A stretch of 64,000 nt of DNA from Octopus vulgaris (Eukaryota). The notes under the pieces were generated by a model. That model made no database searches. It was given only the letters and a program-made list of their open reading frames with translations, and was not told the DNA's origin. Below are positions 11,816 to 64,000 of this stretch, piece after piece (position 1 is the stretch's first letter; each line of letters starts with the position of its first letter). The stretch is from the NCBI GenBank assembly GCA_951406725.2, contig OX597828.1, positions 45,198,001 to 45,262,000 on the forward strand. Reading direction: 5' to 3'. The translations under genes were made by a program, and so were the position numbers.

Positions 11816-12036
11816 GTATGTATTTATGTGTGTGTGTGTCTGTGTTTTTCTCCCTGCCATCGTTTGACAACCGATGCTGGTGTGTTTATGTTCCTGTCAC
11901 TTGGTAGTACAGCAAAGGGACCGATAGAATAAGTACTAGGTTTACAAAGAATGACTCCTGGGATTGATTTCTTAAACTAAAACCCCTTTACAATTGTGCT
12001 CCAACATGACTGCAGTCAAATGACTGAAACAAATAA
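11572..12036 (+). mobile_element. SINE family A, diverged
   Basis: Colinear with 8740-9165, with an internal (CT)n(TA)n tract. Confidence 0.85.
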
Positions 12037-12444
12037 ATGAATAGAATATATATATATATACTCTTTTACACAAGGCTACCAAGGGTTTCATACACAGAGA
12101 AATCTTGCAACAATTATCAAGCCAGCTGCTTGGGAATATTTTTACTTTCCATAGTGAACAAGAATACAGGAGGCTACACGAGAATGTACTGGATTTGGGG
12201 GTACATAGGTATATATAAAGATCATGGAAGAATTATAATTGTTGTCTCCCTTGCATTAGTCCTGGTATCCTTATAATGAACTGCATTCATCAAAGATTGG
12301 TTAATTACTTAATGATTTTATGTGAGAACACTTGGTCACATCCAAATTGATCAATATGAATGCATATATATGCACACAAACTCACACACACAAGCACACA
12401 CATACACACACACACACATCTATATGTATATATATATATATATA

Positions 12445-12649
12445 GTTAATCCAAACAAGAAAGCACAAAAAAACAGAACAACGCGAGGACGTGGAACAAA
12501 TATAGTATTATTGGACGCTCAGGAAAGAAGGAAAGAAGGAGGGTTTAACGTTTCGAGCGGAGCTCTTCGTCGGAAACATAGGAGAAGGAAAGATCCAGAG
12601 AAGGGAAGACAGAAGAAAAAAATCGCCAACGGTACACACGAGGTCACAT
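12445..12649 (-). mobile_element. TA-flanked short element (family E) carrying a minimal hammerhead motif; Penelope-pLTR-like
   Basis: A near-identical inverted copy lies at 43463-43666. Both ends abut (TA)n. Confidence 0.8.
12543..12577 (-). ncRNA. Minimal type I hammerhead-like motif (U4C core variant)
   Basis: GUUU-CCGACGA-A-GAGC(UCC)GCUC-GAAA-CG-UU-AAAC: stem I GUUU/AAAC, 4-bp stem II, palindromic ACGU stem III. Confidence 0.6.
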
Positions 12650-12660
12650 ATATATATAGA

Positions 12661-12917
12661 ATAATTAGAATAGTGGTACAACAATGCACCAATATTTACT
12701 GGAAATAGCAGTTGATAATGTAAGTTAACAAACGTAATTTGGAAGGTTCGAAACCTAGGTCCTAGGTTATCCACATCTGGGTTGTACATTTATTTAATGC
12801 TCTTCCTACAGGTAAGATGAAATCTTTTATACACAGTGAAGCTTTACTATAGCATCATATATTATCAACTGCTATTTTCAGAGAATATTGGTGCACTGTG
12901 CCACCATTAATAATTAT
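12661..12917. mobile_element. TA-flanked element with ~58-bp imperfect terminal inverted repeats
   Basis: 12661-12719 is approximately the reverse complement of 12861-12917. The interior contains GAAA-CCTAGG-TC. Confidence 0.75.
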
Positions 12918-13082
12918 ATATATATATATATATATACATTTATATATATAAAAGTAACTATATGAAAGCTTAAGGTTACTTTTTTATTGTTTACAATAGT
13001 TTTCTCTTTAAACGGAGTTTGACATTTAAAGTTTGAAATGCACATGAGTTGACGTAGTGAATATTTTGGAAATAGATGCTGC

Positions 13083-13150
13083 TATCTCCAACTGAAGATT
13101 GCAAAGCATGTTTTCTCATGCACAGCATGAAATCAATTGATACTGGGATA
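13083..13150 (+). ncRNA. Type I hammerhead-like motif, slightly degenerate
   Basis: CTGAAGA at 13092-13098; stem II TGC..GCATG/CATGC..GCA; GAAA at 13129; palindrome ATCAATTGAT followed by A; stem I TATCTCCA/TGGGATA. The first pairs of stems I and II are mismatched. Confidence 0.6.
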
Positions 13151-13303
13151 AGTAAGCTATCTTCAAATTCCATCCTGAAAGTAGGCCTATTTTTTGAATT
13201 GTTCATTGCATTGCTCGAGTGTGTATTTATCATAGAATTGGTGGTTTTTGAAGCTTTCACTTTCATCTTTGGCAAGCAGCATTTTTACCCTTCTTTTATT
13301 CAA

Positions 13304-13334
<31 letters not shown>

Positions 13335-13364
13335 CAAGAAAAAAGCAACAAGAATGGATTAGTT

Positions 13365-13456
13365 GTTCAGTACAATTGTTTCATACGAAGAACAGATTTA
13401 TTAAAAGCTGCAAATATTGCAGCAAATACAAGTGTCCCATATTCATCAGCCAAAAC
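13365..13456 (-). ncRNA. Type I hammerhead ribozyme motif
   Basis: Minus strand: GUUUUGG-CUGAUGA-AUAUG...CGUAU-GAAA-CAAUUG-UA-CUGAAC. Palindromic stem III ACAAUUGU, GUA triplet, and an internal hairpin GCUGCAA/UUGCAGC. Confidence 0.75.
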
Positions 13457-13639
13457 ACATATGAGTTTTCCAAACATCCTAGGGAGTGAGGCTACACTCA
13501 TGAAGTATTGAAGAGAGTTCTATGAAAAGCAAAGATGGATTGTAAGCAGACTTAAAATGTTCTCTAATGATGCACAGTTTTATATATATATATATATTCA
13601 CAAATATGTATATGTGCATTTATATATATTAGGCGCTAG

Positions 13640-13859
13640 TTCATCGGTGCTGCATAGAAGCACCTGTGCCAGTAACACGTACAAAGCATCCGGCATACTC
13701 TGTAAAGTGGTTGGCATTAGGAAGGGCATCCAGTTGTAAAAACCATGCCTCAAATGGAGTAAGTACAGTGCCCCAGATGGCAAGCTCCTATCAAATCGTC
13801 CATCACATACCAGAATGGAAAATGGGCATAAAATGAGGATGATGACGACGACGACAATG

Positions 13860-19227: not shown

Positions 19228-19463
19228 CATAATATATACATATACACATACACAGAATATAGGAAATGGGGAGATCCAGTTTTTTAGTAAGTAGTGGTTG
19301 AAGTGGATATATTTAGAAAACAGTTCTTTCTGGCTGTTGAATGCACCAGGATTCTTATAGTCCTTAAGAATTTTGGTTCTCTCCAGGATGCATATCTTGC
19401 ACTGGCCATTATATGTGTGTGTGTATGTGTACGTTTGTGTGTGTGTATGTATGTATATATATA

Positions 19464-24639: not shown

Positions 24640-25222
24640 GGCTTGAAATTTACCAGAAAGGTGTACCTCTGGTGACAGTGATACTCTATCTCATATTTCT
24701 TATTGATGGATACTGCAGGCTGGTAATGATATGTAGCAATTAAGGGTACTGGGTGAACATGGTGGTGCCTTGATGATGATAGTCCACTCGATGCTGGGTG
24801 TTTCATCTTGGAGGTCACAAAGTCTCCAGAGAAAGCGCAACAGGGAAGTGGACTTCTTCCTGTATCTGGATCTAAATGAATGCTTGTGCTGGGAGGATCT
24901 TCCCCTGAAGTCAGTGGCTGTCCTATCCATATAGTGCTTAGTGATGCCATCAGATGGTGTGAGGGTGTTTCTGTATACTACAGCCCTTGAGTGGCAGGAC
25001 CCTCCTAGAGGGCAGGTGGTAGGGTTTCGGTAGTTGCAGGTTGGGGTTGGGGGTTGTGTGGATACGTTCTTACATCTGTTGATGTGTGTGATTATTAGAT
25101 GTGACGTTGTCTGAGCAGGAGCTGCATACCTTGACATTATGGGGATTGAAGAGTTTGTAATACTTATGGCCCCTGGGGAAATGTTTCTTCATTAATGACA
25201 AGAAGCCCCTGGCTATATTGGC
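24640..25222 (-). pseudogene. Penelope-like element relic: C-terminal region with GIY-YIG endonuclease
   Basis: ANIARGFLSLMKKHFPRGHKYYKLFN, then CNYRNPTTCPLGGSCHSRAVVY..HYMDRTATDFRGR..HKHSFR..FLW.L..IEWTII, then INKKYEI..C. This matches the Penelope/Neptune-type CNCR..CPL.G.C..VVY..YIG.T..FK.R..NH..SF pattern; frameshifted. Confidence 0.85.
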
Positions 25223-25257
25223 TTATGTATATATATCATAAAGCAATAGTCACACAC

Positions 25258-25296
<39 letters not shown>

Positions 25297-25337
25297 TATA
25301 TATAATATATATTTACAGGAAGTTGATTATATGACTG

Positions 25338-25410
25338 GTCATACAGTAACCAATGGTTTCACATCCATAAAGTGCTTAGCTTTATAAACAACTCATCAGA
25401 CTCCAATGGC
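25338..25410 (-). ncRNA. Type I hammerhead-like motif in a TA-flanked ~150-bp module
   Basis: Minus strand: GAGU-CUGAUGA-GUUGUUUAUAAAG(CUAAGCA)CUUUAUGGAUGU-GAAA-CCAUUGG-UU-ACU. Stem III ACC/GGU, stem I AGU/ACU; the base of stem II is imperfect. Confidence 0.6.
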
Positions 25411-25448
25411 TGCAGACATATAACCTCTCTCCAAATTGGCACTGGAAT

Positions 25449-25599: not shown

Positions 25600-26372
25600 A
25601 TAGTCATCTCATTATGAGATAGCTGAGATGCATTTTTCTCAGATCGGTGTGTAGTATCATAGATGAGATAGTGAATATATAAAACATTTCTCTATTAGCT
25701 AATGGTTTCAAAGAAACTATTAAATAACATATACACATAATTCAACAGAAAGAGATGCAAAAGGAAGCAAAAGAAAAAAACACATGGTTTAATCCACCAT
25801 AATCAAAACCTGTAACAACATTAATGGACAAAACCTTTTTCTAGCTTATATGAATCTACTTTCCTGTGGACATATGGGCAGGAAAACCATTAACCCAATC
25901 TGACTCAAAATAAACTACTCAAAACCAACAAACTTCTCCAAAACTCTTGCATCCATTAATCACTAGAAAATGAAGAATAATTTGAACCACTAAATCCAAA
26001 CCAATAATGGAAATGTATGCCTAGTCAGTTATATACAAAGCCACTGTCACATATAACATTAACCAAAACACTTTGGTTATACACGAATGACAAGTAACTA
26101 ATTCAAGAAGAAGCATTATTATACCTTTAGGACACATAGCAAGGAAGATTGGATAGAAGACAAGCTACATATATCCAATTTTTACAAAATAACAATATCG
26201 TCAAATGGTAACTGTTCAATAAACCATCAGCTTGCACACAATCAAATACACTCTGTAGGCTGTTTACCCTAGAAAGGCTTGCAATCGTGGAACACCAGAC
26301 CAGAACATTGAAAAGCACATAGAATTCATTTCTTCATGCCTCCACATATGCAAATACATCCTTAAATATCAC
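25600..26372 (+). pseudogene. Second, highly decayed Penelope-like element relic (GIY-YIG region)
   Basis: TWFNPP at 25782, LKINYS..N, VIYKATVT at 26028, CRLFTLERLAI and EFISSCLH.CKYIL; many stops. Confidence 0.75.
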
Positions 26373-26689: not shown

Positions 26690-27503
26690 GCACACACACA
26701 CACACACGACTATATCTGGTCAACGTATAGATGCATAAGCACATGCACACACACACATACACATGGATATATGGTCTACGTATAGTTACATAAGCACGTG
26801 CACACACACACACACGCACACATACACACACATGAATATATCTGGTCTGTGTATAGATACACAAACACACAAACATGTACCTGCACACACACACACACAT
26901 GCACAACTACACACACCCACAGGTGTGCACACTCACACAGAGGCCAAGCGCACGTGCTCACACATACACACACACACACGAATATATCTGGTCTACGTAT
27001 AGTTACATAAGCACACGCATACACACACACACACACACACACACATGAATATATCTGGCCTGTGTATAGATACACAAACACACAAACATGTACCTGCACA
27101 CACACATGCACAACCATACACACCGACAGGTGTGCACACTCACACAGAGGCCAAGCACGTGTGCACACACACACACATGCACACACATATGGAGTAAAAC
27201 ACACACACACACACATTAATGCATTTCTATGACTAGGCAGACACACAGAAGCCCCACAAAGACAGCTTCCAATGAAAACACACATATAAGAAATTAATTA
27301 AGATACACCTCGAAGCACATCATGTCATTCCAACAGCCACGCACACACATACACACACACTCATACACACACACAAACACACGCACACACACACAATCGT
27401 GCATGACACACAAATAAATACACATAGGTCCCTATATACAAAGATACATGCAGACACACACCAGATCATTCAATTAAACGTACATTGTCATACACACACG
27501 TGA

Positions 27504-34965: not shown

Positions 34966-36037
34966 GCTATTATTATAATTATTGCTTTTCTCTCTTTTTT
35001 TGTATTTGCTTAATTGTTTGTTGCTTTTGTTGTGATTTCTTTTAATGAGGAACCTTTTCGAATGACTGAGTTTATTGAATAACCAATAAAACTTGACCCT
35101 GAATATTATCTGAAATAATTTAAGAGTGATACTGGTGGTGGTGGTGGGGGTGGTGGAGGAGGATGTGGAGGTGGTGGAGGTGGTGGTGTGGGTGGTGGTG
35201 ATGGCGTGGGTATTTTGCTGGGGCGGAGCTCTTGCGCTGTGATTAATCATTTAAACTGAAATTACCACCGACACACAACAGTGAACTCTGCAGTCTTGGA
35301 GTGAGTTGTGTTCTCAACTACATCAAAACTGAGAGACAGGTTCAATCCCTGGTCAAAGCTAATTTGTCCCAGTTCTATGTATGGTCTCTTAACCCTTTTA
35401 ATACCAACCTACCTGAGATCATTGCTGGTGCTATGACACAATTTTCCCTGATTTAAAGCCATCTGAATCAAAACCTCACTTCAAAACTCCATGTTAATTC
35501 ATTCCACGCAAACACGAAATTAAAAATGTCTTCAAATTTTAGCATGGGGAGGCCAGTAATTTTTGAGGGGAGGGGATGCGGTCAATTACATTGACCCCAG
35601 TACTTGACTGGTACTTATTTTATTGACCTCCAAATGAATGAAAGGCAAAGCTGGTCTTAGCCAAATTTGAACTCAGAACATAAAGACGGACAGTATACTG
35701 CAAAGCATTTTCAGCATCCCCATGTATATGCATATATGTGTGTGTGTATGTATAGTTATGTACATATATATATATCTTTATCTATGTCTATCTACCTACC
35801 AGTCTATATCTATCTATCATTTATCTACCTCTCTCTTTATATATATATATGTATATATGTGTGTGTGTGTGTGTGTGTGTGCGTGTCTGTGTGTGTGTCT
35901 GTGTGTGTGCATGAATACATCTGTAAATATATATATATATCTTTATCTATACCTATCTATCATTTATCTCTTTCTCTCTTTCTTTACACACACACACACA
36001 TATATATATACATACACACATATACATACGTACATTA

Positions 36038-36475
36038 GGCACCCACTACACTCACGGAGTGGTTGGCGTTAGGAAGGGCATCCAGCTGTAGAAACCCTGC
36101 CAGATCAGACTGGAGCCTGTTGCAGCCTCCATGGCTTCCCAGACCTCGGTCGAACCGTCCAACCCATGCTAGCATGGAAAACGGGCATTAAACGATGACG
36201 ATGATGATGATGATGATGACGATGATGTGATATATATATATATATATTTCTTTACTACCCACAAGGGGCTAAACACAGACGGGACAAACAAGGACAGACG
36301 AACGGATTAAGTCGATTATATCGACCCCAGTGTGTAACTGGTACTTAATTTATCGACCCCGAAAGGATGAAAGGCAAAGTCGACCTCGGCGGAATTTGAA
36401 CTCGGAACGTGACGACAGACGAAATACAGCTACGCATTTCGCCCGGTGTGCTAACGTTTCTGCCAGCTCGCCACC
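36038..36475. mobile_element. Family D 3' end (+, 36038-36226) tail-to-tail with SINE B (-, 36245-36475)
   Basis: Both match the family consensus seen elsewhere in the window. Confidence 0.9.
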
Positions 36476-36869
36476 TTATATATATATATATAAACATCTG
36501 ATTACCTGTCTTTGTGCATGTGTGTATGTGTAGTGTGTGCACATGTATGTGCAACTCTGTGTGCATGGCTGTGCGTATGTGTGCATGCATGTATTTAACA
36601 ATGAAGCAGCATGGCATTATGACATGGAGTATAAATAGATGACATGACAGCCTTTTATTTTTATCACTTCAATATTTACGAATTGACATCAACAAATAAG
36701 TATATATATATGTAGACCAATATAGACTATAACAGAAGCCAATAACAATGGAAAACTTAGAATATATTTATATGTATATGTGCATATGTGTGTGTATGTG
36801 TGCAATCATGCACACACACACATTCACAGACAGATATAACAATGTATGTGGATGCGTGGGTGTATATTC

Positions 36870-42143: not shown

Positions 42144-42707
42144 GAAGTTTAGAGAAAAGCAAAAGACTAAGACAGATGTATGAATGACAAGTATGTTAGT
42201 TTGATGCTTGCAGGAAGTTAAAAAGTATTTTATGTTTTGAGCTTATGCACTTCAGCAGAAAGGAATACGAGAAAATAAACAGAGAGAAGGAAAGTGAAAA
42301 AAAACATAGATTTTAGCAGTCCAGCATGGTGTGAGTATCCACATAGATATATGAATGGATGCATGTGGCTAAGTCACAGTTGCTTGTGAACCATGAGGTC
42401 TTAGGTTTGATCCTATCATATGACATCTTGGAGCAACTCCAGTCTTGGGAGTATTTGAGTAGATGGAAGCAGTATTGTAGCTTGCCAGCTTAATTGCGTC
42501 TATCATTAAAAGGAATTTAGTAGAAGACACTCGCCCAAGGTGCCACGCAGTGGAACTGAACTCAGAACCATGTGATTCGTAAGCAAGCTACTTATCACAC
42601 AGCCACTCCAGTGCCTGTATATATTCATACACACACACACGTGCAAACACACACACACACACTCACACACATATTGGTATTTTAATATATATATATATAT
42701 ATACACA

Positions 42708-42791
42708 TATTCCTGATGAGAAGATTGCATAATGCACCCTTTATTCCTTTGGAATGAAAATATGCTGTCTTCGAAACATATGTCGAGAGTA
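42708..42791 (+). ncRNA. Type I hammerhead ribozyme motif with canonical core
   Basis: CTGATGA at 42713-42719; stem II GAAGA/TCTTC extended by GCATA/TATGC; GAAA at 42773; palindromic ACATATGT; GUC triplet (C at 42784); short stem I TTC/GAG. The module is TA-flanked. Confidence 0.8.
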
Positions 42792-42854
42792 AAGGAATTT
42801 TGTTAACATCTTCGTTCGACTCCATTCTTTCATTTATATATATATATATATATA

Positions 42855-43244: not shown

Positions 43245-43460
43245 TATGATGGGGTGCTGAAAAGTTCCTGGCTTTAGGTAAAGGAAACACAGGAGGATCA
43301 GTTAATTATGATTTCATTCATCTTATTCCCCTCTCAGATTCACACATTTATTGCAGTGGTCCTTTAGTATTTCTAAGCCTTGTAAAAGTGCTTGGAAGTT
43401 TGGGCCTCCGGCCAAGCCTTTCATGATACCCTTAAAGCTAAGAACTTTTCTGCACCTCCA
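43245..43460. mobile_element. Tc1/mariner-type MITE, second copy
   Basis: GGGGTGCTGAAAAGTTCCTGGCTTTA / TAAAGCTAAGAACTTTTCTGCACCTC. Confidence 0.8.
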
Positions 43461-43462
43461 AA

Positions 43463-43662
43463 ATGTGACCTCATGTGTACCGTTGGCGATTTTTTCCTCT
43501 GTCATCCCTTCTCTGGATCTTTCCTGCTCCTATGTTTCCAACGAAGAGCTCCGCTCGAAACGTTAAACCCTCCTTCTTTCCTTCTTTCCTGAGCGTCCAA
43601 TAATACTATATTTGTTCCACGTCCTCGCGTTGTTGTGTTTTTTTGTGCTTTCTTGTTTGGAT

Positions 43663-43666
<4 letters not shown>
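43463..43666 (+). mobile_element. Family E element, second copy; hammerhead motif at 43534-43568 has a G5-to-A change
   Basis: Reverse complement of 12445-12649; the core reads CCAACGA. Confidence 0.8.
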
Positions 43667-63368: not shown

Positions 63369-63412
<44 letters not shown>

Positions 63413-63618
63413 TGTGAAATAGAAAGATGAATAATCTTGTAGCAGATTAATCAAAGGTTTAACCGATACCTTGGTAGCAAAAATCACAGCAGAAGACAGC
63501 ACGGTTGGAGGTACAACCATATGGTGTTGCAACCGTGCGTTGGTGCGGATAATTGAATTTAAATATTATTGGTGAATTGAAGAAATGGAGCTGAACGAAG
63601 ATTGAACAGAAATCGTTT

Positions 63619-63712
63619 TATTTCATTCTACACGTGTTTCGAAAGGCACAATTTACCAAAATCCGATTGAATAATGAGACCATATTGTGTCTTTCTCTTC
63701 AGGAAGAAAATA
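63619..63712 (-). ncRNA. Type I hammerhead ribozyme motif (left arm)
   Basis: Mirror copy of 63819-63911. Confidence 0.8.
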
Positions 63713-63818
63713 GGAAATCCGTTGGAAAAAACAAAAACAGAACAGAGGCGGAGCAAAACAAATCGAACTAGGCTCCTAAGAACCTCTGTTCTGTTTTTGT
63801 TTTTTCCAACGGATTTCC

Positions 63819-63911
63819 TATTTCTTCCTGAAGAGAAAGACACAATATGGTCTCATTATTCAATCGGATTTTGGTAAATTGTGCCTTTCGAAACACGTGT
63901 AGAATGAAATA
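63819..63911 (+). ncRNA. Type I hammerhead ribozyme motif (right arm)
   Basis: Stem I TATTTCTTC/GAA(T)GAAATA; CTGAAGA at 63828-63834; stem II GAAAGACACAAT/ATTGTGCCTTTC (11 of 12 paired); GAAA at 63890; palindromic ACACGTGT; GUA triplet (A at 63901). Confidence 0.85.
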
Positions 63912-64000
63912 AAACGATTTCTGTTCAATCTTCGTTCAGCTCCATTTCTTCAATTCACCAATTATATATATATATATATGTTTGTTTATCCACCACACAA

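What the first reader, a model, noticed from the sequence alone, without database searches (positions are those of the whole stretch)
12060..13580. Five consecutive TA-separated modules, each with a hammerhead or hammerhead remnant
Seen: 12060-12340 (minus-strand remnant GGC-UUGAUAA..GAAACCCUUGGUA-GCC at 12074-12123), 12445-12649 (minimal motif), 12661-12917 (TIR element with GAAACCUAGGUC), 12950-13300 (motif at 13083) and 13335-13580 (motif at 13365). The modules are mutually dissimilar and lie in both orientations. Inference: a (TA)n tract was hit repeatedly by different ribozyme-bearing retroelements, with each insertion leaving fresh TA target.
Basis: partly seen in the sequence, partly recalled or inferred. 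Interest (0 to 1): 0.7.

Follow-up and report, generated by a model that had tools for sequence, protein, structure and literature searches.

The report
Stacked Penelope ends with hammerheads
Five unrelated repeated elements carrying complete or broken hammerhead-ribozyme motifs sit in a row in one TA-repeat tract; they are likely the tail ends of TA-targeting Penelope-like jumping genes, an already described kind, though one 203-base member looks about as abundant as this genome's main short repeat.

Summary
The five TA-separated modules are real, mutually dissimilar and in both orientations (M1 -, M2 -, M3 +, M4 +, M5 -). M2, M4 and M5 carry complete type I hammerhead motifs. M5 has an intact CUGAUGA core and a 60-nt stem II. 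M1 is decayed, with a U3-A8 core. M3 has only the 3' half, inside 52-bp inverted ends.

Contigs of four public runs show each module as its own repeat family. Summed depth runs from about 10x single-copy (M1) to about 10^5x (M2), a rough measure, and the spacers are near zero. M2 has a second full-length copy at 43465-43666 with other neighbours. Majority letters of the related copies repair 5 of 5 listed positions that fall in modelled helices.

M1, M4 and M5 match the published hammerhead layout of Hydra-clade Penelope-like elements (PLEs), which insert into (TA)n. Decayed Hydra-type endonuclease fragments lie elsewhere in the window.

Best reading: separate insertions of PLE 3' ends into one TA tract. 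This is a known kind of element. Not shown: empty sites, an ORF joined to any module, self-cleavage. The best lead is M2, a fixed-length, very abundant element with a U4C core.

The parts
11840..12045 (+). High-copy SINE-like repeat whose 3' tail runs into the first TA tract (left neighbour)
   Evidence: 5 more copies in the window at 75-77%; summed depth 1.4-3.1 x10^5 times single-copy; the SINE label is recalled
12046..12059 (.). (TA)7 spacer
12060..12342 (-). M1: low-copy module with a decayed hammerhead 17 nt from its 3' end (core UUGAUAA 12120-12114, GAAAC 12089-12085, GUA 12079-12077); possibly two pieces around a small TA run at 12210-12217
   Evidence: depth 5-11x at the motif and 1-2x in the middle; present at the same site in organisms B and C (table 8, records 17 and 25)
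12343..12444 (.). Mixed TA/CA microsatellite spacer
12445..12647 (-). M2: 203-bp fixed-length element with a minimal hammerhead (U4C core CCGACGA 12573-12567, stem II 12565-12555, GAAAC 12554-12550, GUU ending at 12547)
   Evidence: second copy 96.6% identical; summed depth about 1-2 x10^5 times single-copy
12648..12658 (.). (TA)5 spacer
12659..12914 (+). M3: module with 52-nt inverted ends (12671-12722, 12858-12909) and a hammerhead 3' half (GAAACCUAGGUC 12750-12761); 5' core not in register
   Evidence: depth 70-510x
12915..12950 (.). TA spacer
12951..13303 (+). M4: hammerhead CUGAAGA 13092-13098, stem II UGC..GCA with inner GCAUG/CAUGC, palindromic AUCAAUUGAU, AUA ending at 13142
   Evidence: depth 15-250x; the majority letter at 13143 closes stem I; an opposite-strand joint in related copies
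13304..13330 (.). (TA)13 spacer
13331..13580 (-). M5: hammerhead with intact core CUGAUGA 13449-13443, 60-nt stem II, GAAAC 13382-13378, palindromic ACAAUUGU, GUA ending at 13371, about 40 nt from the 3' TA tract
   Evidence: depth 1200-3200x at the motif, falling towards the 5' end
13581..13597 (.). (TA)8 spacer, followed by another repeated element
43465..43666 (+). Second full-length copy of M2, followed by (TA)18 and preceded by an element with 24-nt inverted ends
24724..25231 (-). Broken Hydra-type PLE linker and endonuclease fragment outside the cluster; shows that the clade is in this genome

Best explanation
The stretch is a row of five unrelated repeat-family members separated by TA microsatellite, most likely the 3' ends of Penelope-like retroelements (PLEs) that inserted one after another into a single TA tract. 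Shown: each module is a separate multi-copy family, and M2, M4 and M5 carry complete type I hammerhead motifs with palindromic helix III, 41-162 nt from a 3' TA tract (M1: 17 nt). Inferred mechanism: the GIY-YIG endonuclease of a (TA)n-targeting PLE (Hydra clade for M1, M4 and M5; another clade for M2) nicks the tract, and reverse transcription starts from the RNA 3' end. It usually stops early, so only the 3' UTR with its hammerhead is left. The split tract keeps TA on both sides and can be hit again. M1, M3, M4 and M5 are old and decayed, and M1 predates the split of organisms A, B and C. M2 is a younger, fixed-length non-autonomous family. M3 is probably an end with an inverted 3' copy attached that has lost its 5' core. 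The ribozymes would work only as homodimers in tandem precursors of their own family, so here they are probably inert passengers.
For: Summed contig depth relative to the single-copy contig, four runs: M1 5-11x, M2 1-2 x10^5, M3 70-510x, M4 15-250x, M5 330-3200x, spacers 0-0.2x (rough, the tool warns this is no copy number). M2 has a second end-to-end copy among other neighbours. M4 relatives at 84-94% lie on contigs of single-copy depth that run on into unlike sequence (table 8). Majority letters repair or strengthen base pairs at 5 of 5 listed positions in modelled helices (12083, 12124, 12766, 13143, 13439). M1, M4 and M5 show the layout CUGANGA-extra nt-stem II-U-GAAA-palindromic helix III listed for Hydra PLEs; Hydra-1_Obim has acca-a-tggt, like the M1 majority form and the module at 25313-25448. 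Almost all Hydra families insert into (TA)n, and the Hydra-1_Obim hammerhead lies about 35 nt from its 3' end. Hydra-type endonuclease remnants lie in the window, one a TA-flanked fragment at 19270-19455 (iE 6e-7); 3 of the 4 relatives of 660 aa or more carry RxRW and DKT. All 5 motifs outside the cluster have a TA tract within 221 nt at 3', and 4 of 5 within 110 nt, against a background of 14%. Depth falls towards the 5' end in M4 and M5. Inverted ends occur in M4 relatives (joint 13011-13/13199-201) and in the pair at 63557-63973, as described for PLEs.
Against: None of the five modules has a coding remnant (no profile hit at E<=5), so no module is tied directly to a PLE ORF. No empty site was seen: the joints that skip 12037-13700 connect two high-copy repeats with sides of only 24-26 nt, and no listed contig crosses the inner spacers. 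Rfam finds nothing and loose descriptors are not significant. Stem II of M1 and of M3 folds no better than shuffles. M3 depth falls towards its presumed 3' end, the opposite of 5' truncation. None of six window motifs matched the published Naiad, Chlamys and Hydra consensus files (line breaks can hide matches). The element with inverted ends beside the second M2 copy and several SINE-like repeats also sit at TA tracts, so the target is not specific to PLEs.
Confidence: 0.8

Rival explanations
1. A mixed sink: M2, M4 and M5 are PLE-derived, but M3 is a TA-inserting MITE whose palindromic middle only mimics a hammerhead half, and M1 is a chance join of two decayed low-copy repeats. This changes the count of ribozyme elements, not the stacking.
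For: M3 has 52-nt inverted ends, no 5' core in register, and a depth profile unlike 5' truncation. Half motifs occur 42 times in the window against 29.5 in shuffles. No insertion relative to the window is listed for M3 relatives (table 4), so a missing core would be a family trait. M1's middle is single-copy. An element with inverted ends sits in a TA tract at 43248-43464.
Against: M3's majority letter at 12766 improves an 8-bp helix placed where stem I belongs. Inverted ends also arise in M4 relatives and at 63557-63973, both with hammerheads. M1's majority letters repair stems I and III.
Confidence: 0.3
2. The modules are solo monomers of non-LTR retrozymes, spread through small circular RNAs from tandem arrays elsewhere, rather than truncated ends of long PLEs. 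This is most plausible for M2.
For: Sizes of 200-350 nt with one type I hammerhead each fit retrozyme monomers. Dispersed monomers of PLE-derived retrozymes are reported in Xenopus. M2 has fixed ends.
Against: The hammerheads are of the minimal PLE type, and no loop 1-loop 2 contact was evident to me (not formally tested). No head-to-tail joint of any module is among the 15 joints shown of 352, although module ends lie in repeats the tool skipped. Depth gradients in M4 and M5 suggest variable 5' ends.
Confidence: 0.12
3. One composite element, or a functional multi-ribozyme cassette kept by the host, in which neighbouring hammerheads complete each other.
For: Five in a row is more than independent placement gives within this window (expected 0.001 runs per window), but the window was picked for this feature.
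Against: Depths differ about 10^4-fold and M2 occurs alone. The window's copies carry helix-breaking changes relative to their families. The helix III palindromes differ in sequence and length, so cross-pairing looks poor (by inspection). The modules lie on both strands.
Confidence: 0.03
4. The motifs are chance matches in AT-rich DNA.
For: No Rfam hit; loose descriptors give P 0.07-0.13.
Against: Strict descriptor 6 vs 0.5 in the window; family letters repair helices at 5 of 5 positions; match to the published Hydra layout.
Confidence: 0.03

Closest known systems
Hydra-clade Penelope-like elements (Craig et al. 2021, PMC8557442; passages, section 11 and supplement parts 1, 2, 52, 53 seen), including Hydra-1_Obim of Octopus bimaculoides
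   Same: (TA)n insertion; a type I hammerhead near the 3' end; an extra nucleotide after A9, U before GAAA and a palindromic helix III; inverted truncated copies. Hydra-type endonuclease remnants are in this window.
   Different: No ORF is attached to any of the five modules. Stem II is longer (24-60 nt in M1, M4, M5 and up to 55 nt elsewhere in the window, against roughly 12-25 nt in the published table). M4 has U15.2-A16.2 and M1 has U3-A8. No sequence match to the published consensus files.
Minimal hammerheads of metazoan PLEs (Cervera and De la Pena 2014, PMC4209133; parts 1-2 of 4 read)
   Same: M2 has stem I of 4 bp, an extra nucleotide between 9 and 10.1, G10.1-C11.1 and palindromic 15.2-16.2 with no loop 3. 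The paper reports most motifs as dispersed singles, probably truncated PLEs, close pairs on opposite strands, and a U3-A8 variant.
   Different: M2 has a U4C core, a fixed 203-bp length and apparent SINE-scale abundance. U4C is known as a weak natural variant in a viroid (PMC3088659, passages seen).
Non-LTR retrozymes (Cervera and De la Pena 2020, PMC7229834, passages; Li, Clavereau and Pollet 2026, 10.64898/2026.07.22.740005, part 1 of 5 and passages)
   Same: Small non-coding units with one type I hammerhead, related to PLE pLTRs; dispersed monomers exist.
   Different: Retrozymes are head-to-tail repeats of one unit. Here five unrelated units lie in both orientations, separated by TA.
MuTAnT, Mutator-like elements targeting TA microsatellites (PMC4486113; search listing and start of the abstract only)
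   Same: TA microsatellites as a preferred insertion site for mobile elements.
   Different: A plant DNA transposon without a ribozyme.

Membership tests
Type I minimal/PLE hammerhead | CUGANGA ... GAAA ... UH core (or a published variant) with stems I and II | tested here: met
   Met for M2 (U4C), M5, and M4 (stem I closed by the family majority letter)
Type I minimal/PLE hammerhead | The same test for M1 and M3 | tested here: inconclusive
   M1: U3-A8 core and stems I and III, but stem II z -0.77. M3: 5' core not in register.
Type I minimal/PLE hammerhead | Palindromic helix III allowing dimer formation | tested here: met
   ACGU, ACCUAGGU, AUCAAUUGAU, ACAAUUGU; M1 near-palindromic only with the majority letter
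Type I minimal/PLE hammerhead | Self-cleavage | not testable with these tools
   Needs in vitro transcription; all listed runs are kept as contigs
Hydra-clade PLE | RT + C-terminal GIY-YIG ORF with RWK, DKT and CxCX5C, joined to the element | tested here: inconclusive
   No coding remnant in M1-M5, as expected for UTR-only ends. Such remnants lie at 24724-25231, 19270-19455 and 25653-26331, not joined to the five modules
Hydra-clade PLE | Insertion into (TA)n | tested here: met
   All five are bounded by TA or TA/CA microsatellite; the outside motifs are enriched near TA; empty sites not seen
Hydra-clade PLE | Hammerhead near the 3' end with the published layout | tested here: met
   M1, M4 and M5 compared by eye with File S2; M2 does not have this layout
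Hydra-clade PLE | 5' truncation and inverted truncated copies | tested here: inconclusive
   Depth gradients in M4 and M5 and the opposite-strand joint in M4 relatives fit; the M3 gradient is reversed
Non-LTR retrozyme | Head-to-tail tandem repeats of one hammerhead unit | tested here: not met
   Not at this locus; elsewhere inconclusive, because module ends lie in repeats skipped
Non-LTR retrozyme | Monomer-size circular RNA | not testable with these tools
   No RNA run was laid; contigs cannot show it
MITE (M3) | Terminal inverted repeats with a TA target duplication and uniform length | tested here: inconclusive
   52-nt arms at 83%; a duplication cannot be read inside (TA)n; depth is not flat
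MITE (M3) | Ends shared with an autonomous DNA transposon | not tested
   No genome held

The most novel reading that the evidence does not exclude
M2 is an undescribed SINE-like family mobilised by a Penelope-like element: a fixed 203-bp unit with no tRNA head and a U4C-core minimal hammerhead, amplified in TA tracts to 10^4-10^5 copies, on a par with the genome's main SINE. PLE ends also land preferentially beside earlier PLE ends, so TA tracts grow into self-feeding ribozyme stacks.
Probability: 0.25. Interest if true: 0.55.

Novelty: new member of a known kind. Interest (0 to 1): 0.3.

Why it matters
The arrangement follows from published PLE behaviour: (TA)n targeting, 3' hammerheads and 5' truncation. 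It is a clear example rather than a new system. It shows that this genome holds many PLE-type hammerhead families that Rfam misses, about ten motifs in 64 kb, several with stem II of 30-60 nt. Such stacks could be used to order insertions in time across related species. If M2 is a PLE-driven SINE-like family at 10^4-10^5 copies with a weakened core, it would allow a test of whether hammerhead activity matters for PLE-driven spread, which the cited papers leave open.

Tried and rejected
No whole genome is held, so genome-wide BLAST and empty-site comparison were impossible.

Rfam gave no hammerhead. My first descriptor (stem II up to 45 nt) missed M2, M4 and the true M5 core and was not significant.

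Pfam found nothing for 3 of 4 window ORFs and only a sub-threshold NUDIX hit for the fourth. It also failed to recognise the PLE relatives. A word-index search of longer proteins for the endonuclease fragment gave no hit among 644 candidates; the exhaustive search did. Cluster look-up gave no names.

Exact motif scans of metagenome contigs (M2, M3) and prokaryote genome contigs (M2) gave 0 loci.

No RNA holder was listed as such and no RNA run was laid, so nothing is claimed on expression.

Joints skipping 12037-13700 were rejected as empty alleles: both sides are high-copy repeats and the sides are 24-26 nt. Low depth at the spacers is not evidence of absence.

A covariance model from the three outside hammerheads was dropped because MAFFT misaligned them.

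The paper on dimeric PLE hammerhead variants that I recalled (Lunse et al.) is not held and was not used. Literature searches listed no paper describing M2 or such stacks in octopus; Repbase, Dfam and subscription journals were not searchable. Supplements of the 2026 preprint could not be seen and might list related monomer families.

Heterodimers between neighbouring hammerheads were considered and rejected by inspection of the helix III palindromes.

Full report
Setting. The window is AT-rich (GC 27-49%), full of microsatellites (191 tandem-repeat rows) and looks like non-coding animal DNA. From recalled SINE sequences I take it for an octopus genome; no call names the organism. No assembly is held.

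Observation. Between 12046 and 13597, six TA tracts enclose five modules: M1 12060-12342, M2 12445-12647, M3 12659-12914, M4 12951-13303 and M5 13331-13580. They share no similarity longer than 16 nt. TA-separated short segments are common here: 53 of 82 inter-tract segments are 400 nt or shorter, and another run of four lies at 36011-36869. The hammerhead content is therefore what needs testing.

Significance of the motifs. Rfam finds none. A loose descriptor is not significant (P 0.12-0.13), nor are 3' half motifs (P 0.067). A strict type I descriptor (canonical, U3-A8 or U4C core; folding stem II up to 75 nt; palindromic helix III; stem I of at least 3 bp) gives 6 hits in the window against 0.5 in 40 shuffles, and 2 against 0.02 in the region. 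The core variants were chosen after I had seen the region, but four of the six hits lie outside it and have canonical cores.

Motif by motif. M2 (-) is a minimal hammerhead: GUUU/AAAC stem I, CCGACGA, an extra A, GAGC/GCUC, and ACGU. M5 (-) has an intact CUGAUGA at 13449-43, a 60-nt stem II (z -2.68), ACAAUUGU and a 5-bp stem I. M4 (+) has CUGAAGA at 13092, an 8-bp interrupted stem II (z -1.91) and AUCAAUUGAU; its first stem I pair is broken in this copy. M1 (-) has UUGAUAA, a 3-bp stem I and a weak stem II (z -0.77). M3 (+) has GAAACCUAGGUC inside 52-nt inverted arms. Its stem I is either 2 bp with UUGAUAA at 12712, or 8 bp with the 5' core missing.

Copy number and independence. Twenty of 24 listed public runs hold part of the stretch. 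I laid four of them, from organisms A, A, B and C, all kept as contigs. Taking the contig across 12014-12372 as single-copy depth, summed depth is 5-11x at the M1 motif (1-2x in its middle), 1-2 x10^5 in M2, 70-510x in M3, 15-250x in M4, 330-3200x in M5 and 0-0.2x at two spacers. The tool warns that summed depth is no copy number, and overlapping short contigs inflate it, so I use only the rank order and the order of magnitude. M2 is level with the flanking SINE-like repeat by the same measure. M2 recurs end to end at 43465-43666, 96.6% identical, between an element with inverted ends and (TA)18. M4 relatives at 84-94% lie on contigs of single-copy depth that continue into unlike DNA. M1 is at the same site in organisms B and C, with 19 other letters in about 360. 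No listed contig crosses the inner spacers, so orthology of M2-M5 and empty sites are untested.

Family letters repair the structures. One search shows 40 of 176 difference rows. Five fall in modelled helices, and all five repair or strengthen a pair: M1 stems I and III, the 8-bp M3 helix, M4 stem I and the base of M5 stem II. One more (12107) lies in M1's unresolved stem II. Neither the U4 position of M2 nor the 3 and 8 positions of M1 appear among the shown rows. This suggests U4C and U3-A8 are family traits, but hidden rows leave it open.

What they are. Craig et al. 2021 (PMC8557442) describe Hydra-clade PLEs, almost all inserting into (TA)n, with hammerheads in the 3' region. Their table shows the layout ctgatgat-tgcc..ggca-tgaa with a palindromic helix III, and an Octopus bimaculoides member with acca-a-tggt about 35 nt from its end. 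M4 reads CUGAAGAU-UGC..GCA-UGAA. M1 in its majority form, and the module at 25313-25448, read ACCA-U-UGGU. The window also holds the protein side. An ORF at 24700-25188 (-) has 1467 relatives at E<=0.001; of the eight of 380 aa or more, all have a CNC-X5/6-C linker, and three of the four longest have RxRW and DKT, the Hydra hallmarks. Their profile finds further remnants at 19270-19455 (TA-flanked, iE 6e-7) and 25653-25871 (iE 6e-8), but none in M1-M5. The five motifs outside the cluster lie 51-221 nt upstream of a TA tract, four of them within 110 nt, against a background of 14%; two of the five are one inverted insertion. M2 fits the minimal hammerhead of Cervera and De la Pena 2014, who also report dispersed single motifs from truncated PLEs and the U3-A8 variant. 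U4C is a known weak natural variant.

Mechanism. Shown: separate families, TA flanks, motif structure, and the age of M1. From published work: (TA)n targeting, 3' hammerheads, truncation and inversion. Inferred: each module came by target-primed reverse transcription into the tract, which it split and left available for the next insertion. The ribozymes need a second copy of their own family to fold, so they are probably inert here. Five in a row is more than independent placement predicts for one window (about 0.001), but the window was selected for it. With tens of thousands of windows in a genome of this kind (size recalled), dozens of such stacks would arise without any special preference.

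Against. No module is joined to an ORF, and no empty site was seen. M3's depth gradient runs the wrong way and it may be a MITE. M1 may be composite. Other element types use the same TA tracts. None of six window motifs matched the published consensus files.

Novelty. These are new families of a known kind. An earlier AI note of this scan describes the same pattern in another genome (unchecked). Six paper searches listed no description of M2, but repeat libraries could not be searched. Interest 0.3; the lead worth following is M2.

Noticed in passing
window 25313-25448 (-): A TA-flanked module with a canonical CUGAUGA hammerhead, a 32-nt stem II and ACCAUUGGU, very like the published Hydra-1_Obim motif; it lies just upstream of the Hydra-type endonuclease remnant, separated from it by TA.
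   Followed up: partly
window 42704-42834 (+): A 131-bp TA-flanked module with a well-formed hammerhead: 53-nt stem II (z -3.91), ACAUAUGU, GUC site. It is the best candidate in the window for an activity test.
   Followed up: partly
window 63411-63961: A head-to-head inverted pair of PLE-type ends (180-nt arms, 92%) with two identical hammerheads (55-nt stem II, ACACGUGU), TA at both outer ends.
   Followed up: partly
window 24724-25231 (-), 25653-26331 (+), 19270-19455 (-): Broken Hydra-type PLE coding remnants, frameshifted or interrupted by stops; the last is a short TA-flanked fragment of the endonuclease C-terminus.
   Followed up: partly
window 43248-43464: An element with 24-nt inverted ends (88%), mariner-like from recall, between (TA)5 and the second M2 copy. 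With a SINE-like repeat on the right, this is a second mixed TA stack.
   Followed up: partly
window 13011-13201 and 13140-13142 (M4 relatives): An amplified M4 subfamily has an opposite-strand joint (depth 249-644). One dispersed copy seen in two runs stops matching at 13142, the predicted cleavage site; this may be an alignment artefact.
   Followed up: no
window 12060-12072: M1's 3' end resembles the tail of the high-copy SINE-like repeat; contigs join 12069-72 to the SINE end (table 5c). This is either a shared 3' signal or chance.
   Followed up: no
window 36011-36869: Another run of four TA-separated segments; at least two are common repeats with 9 and 19 further matches in the window, and none has a hammerhead half.
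   Followed up: partly
window 26690-27190: A tandem of about two 207-213-nt CA-rich units.
   Followed up: no
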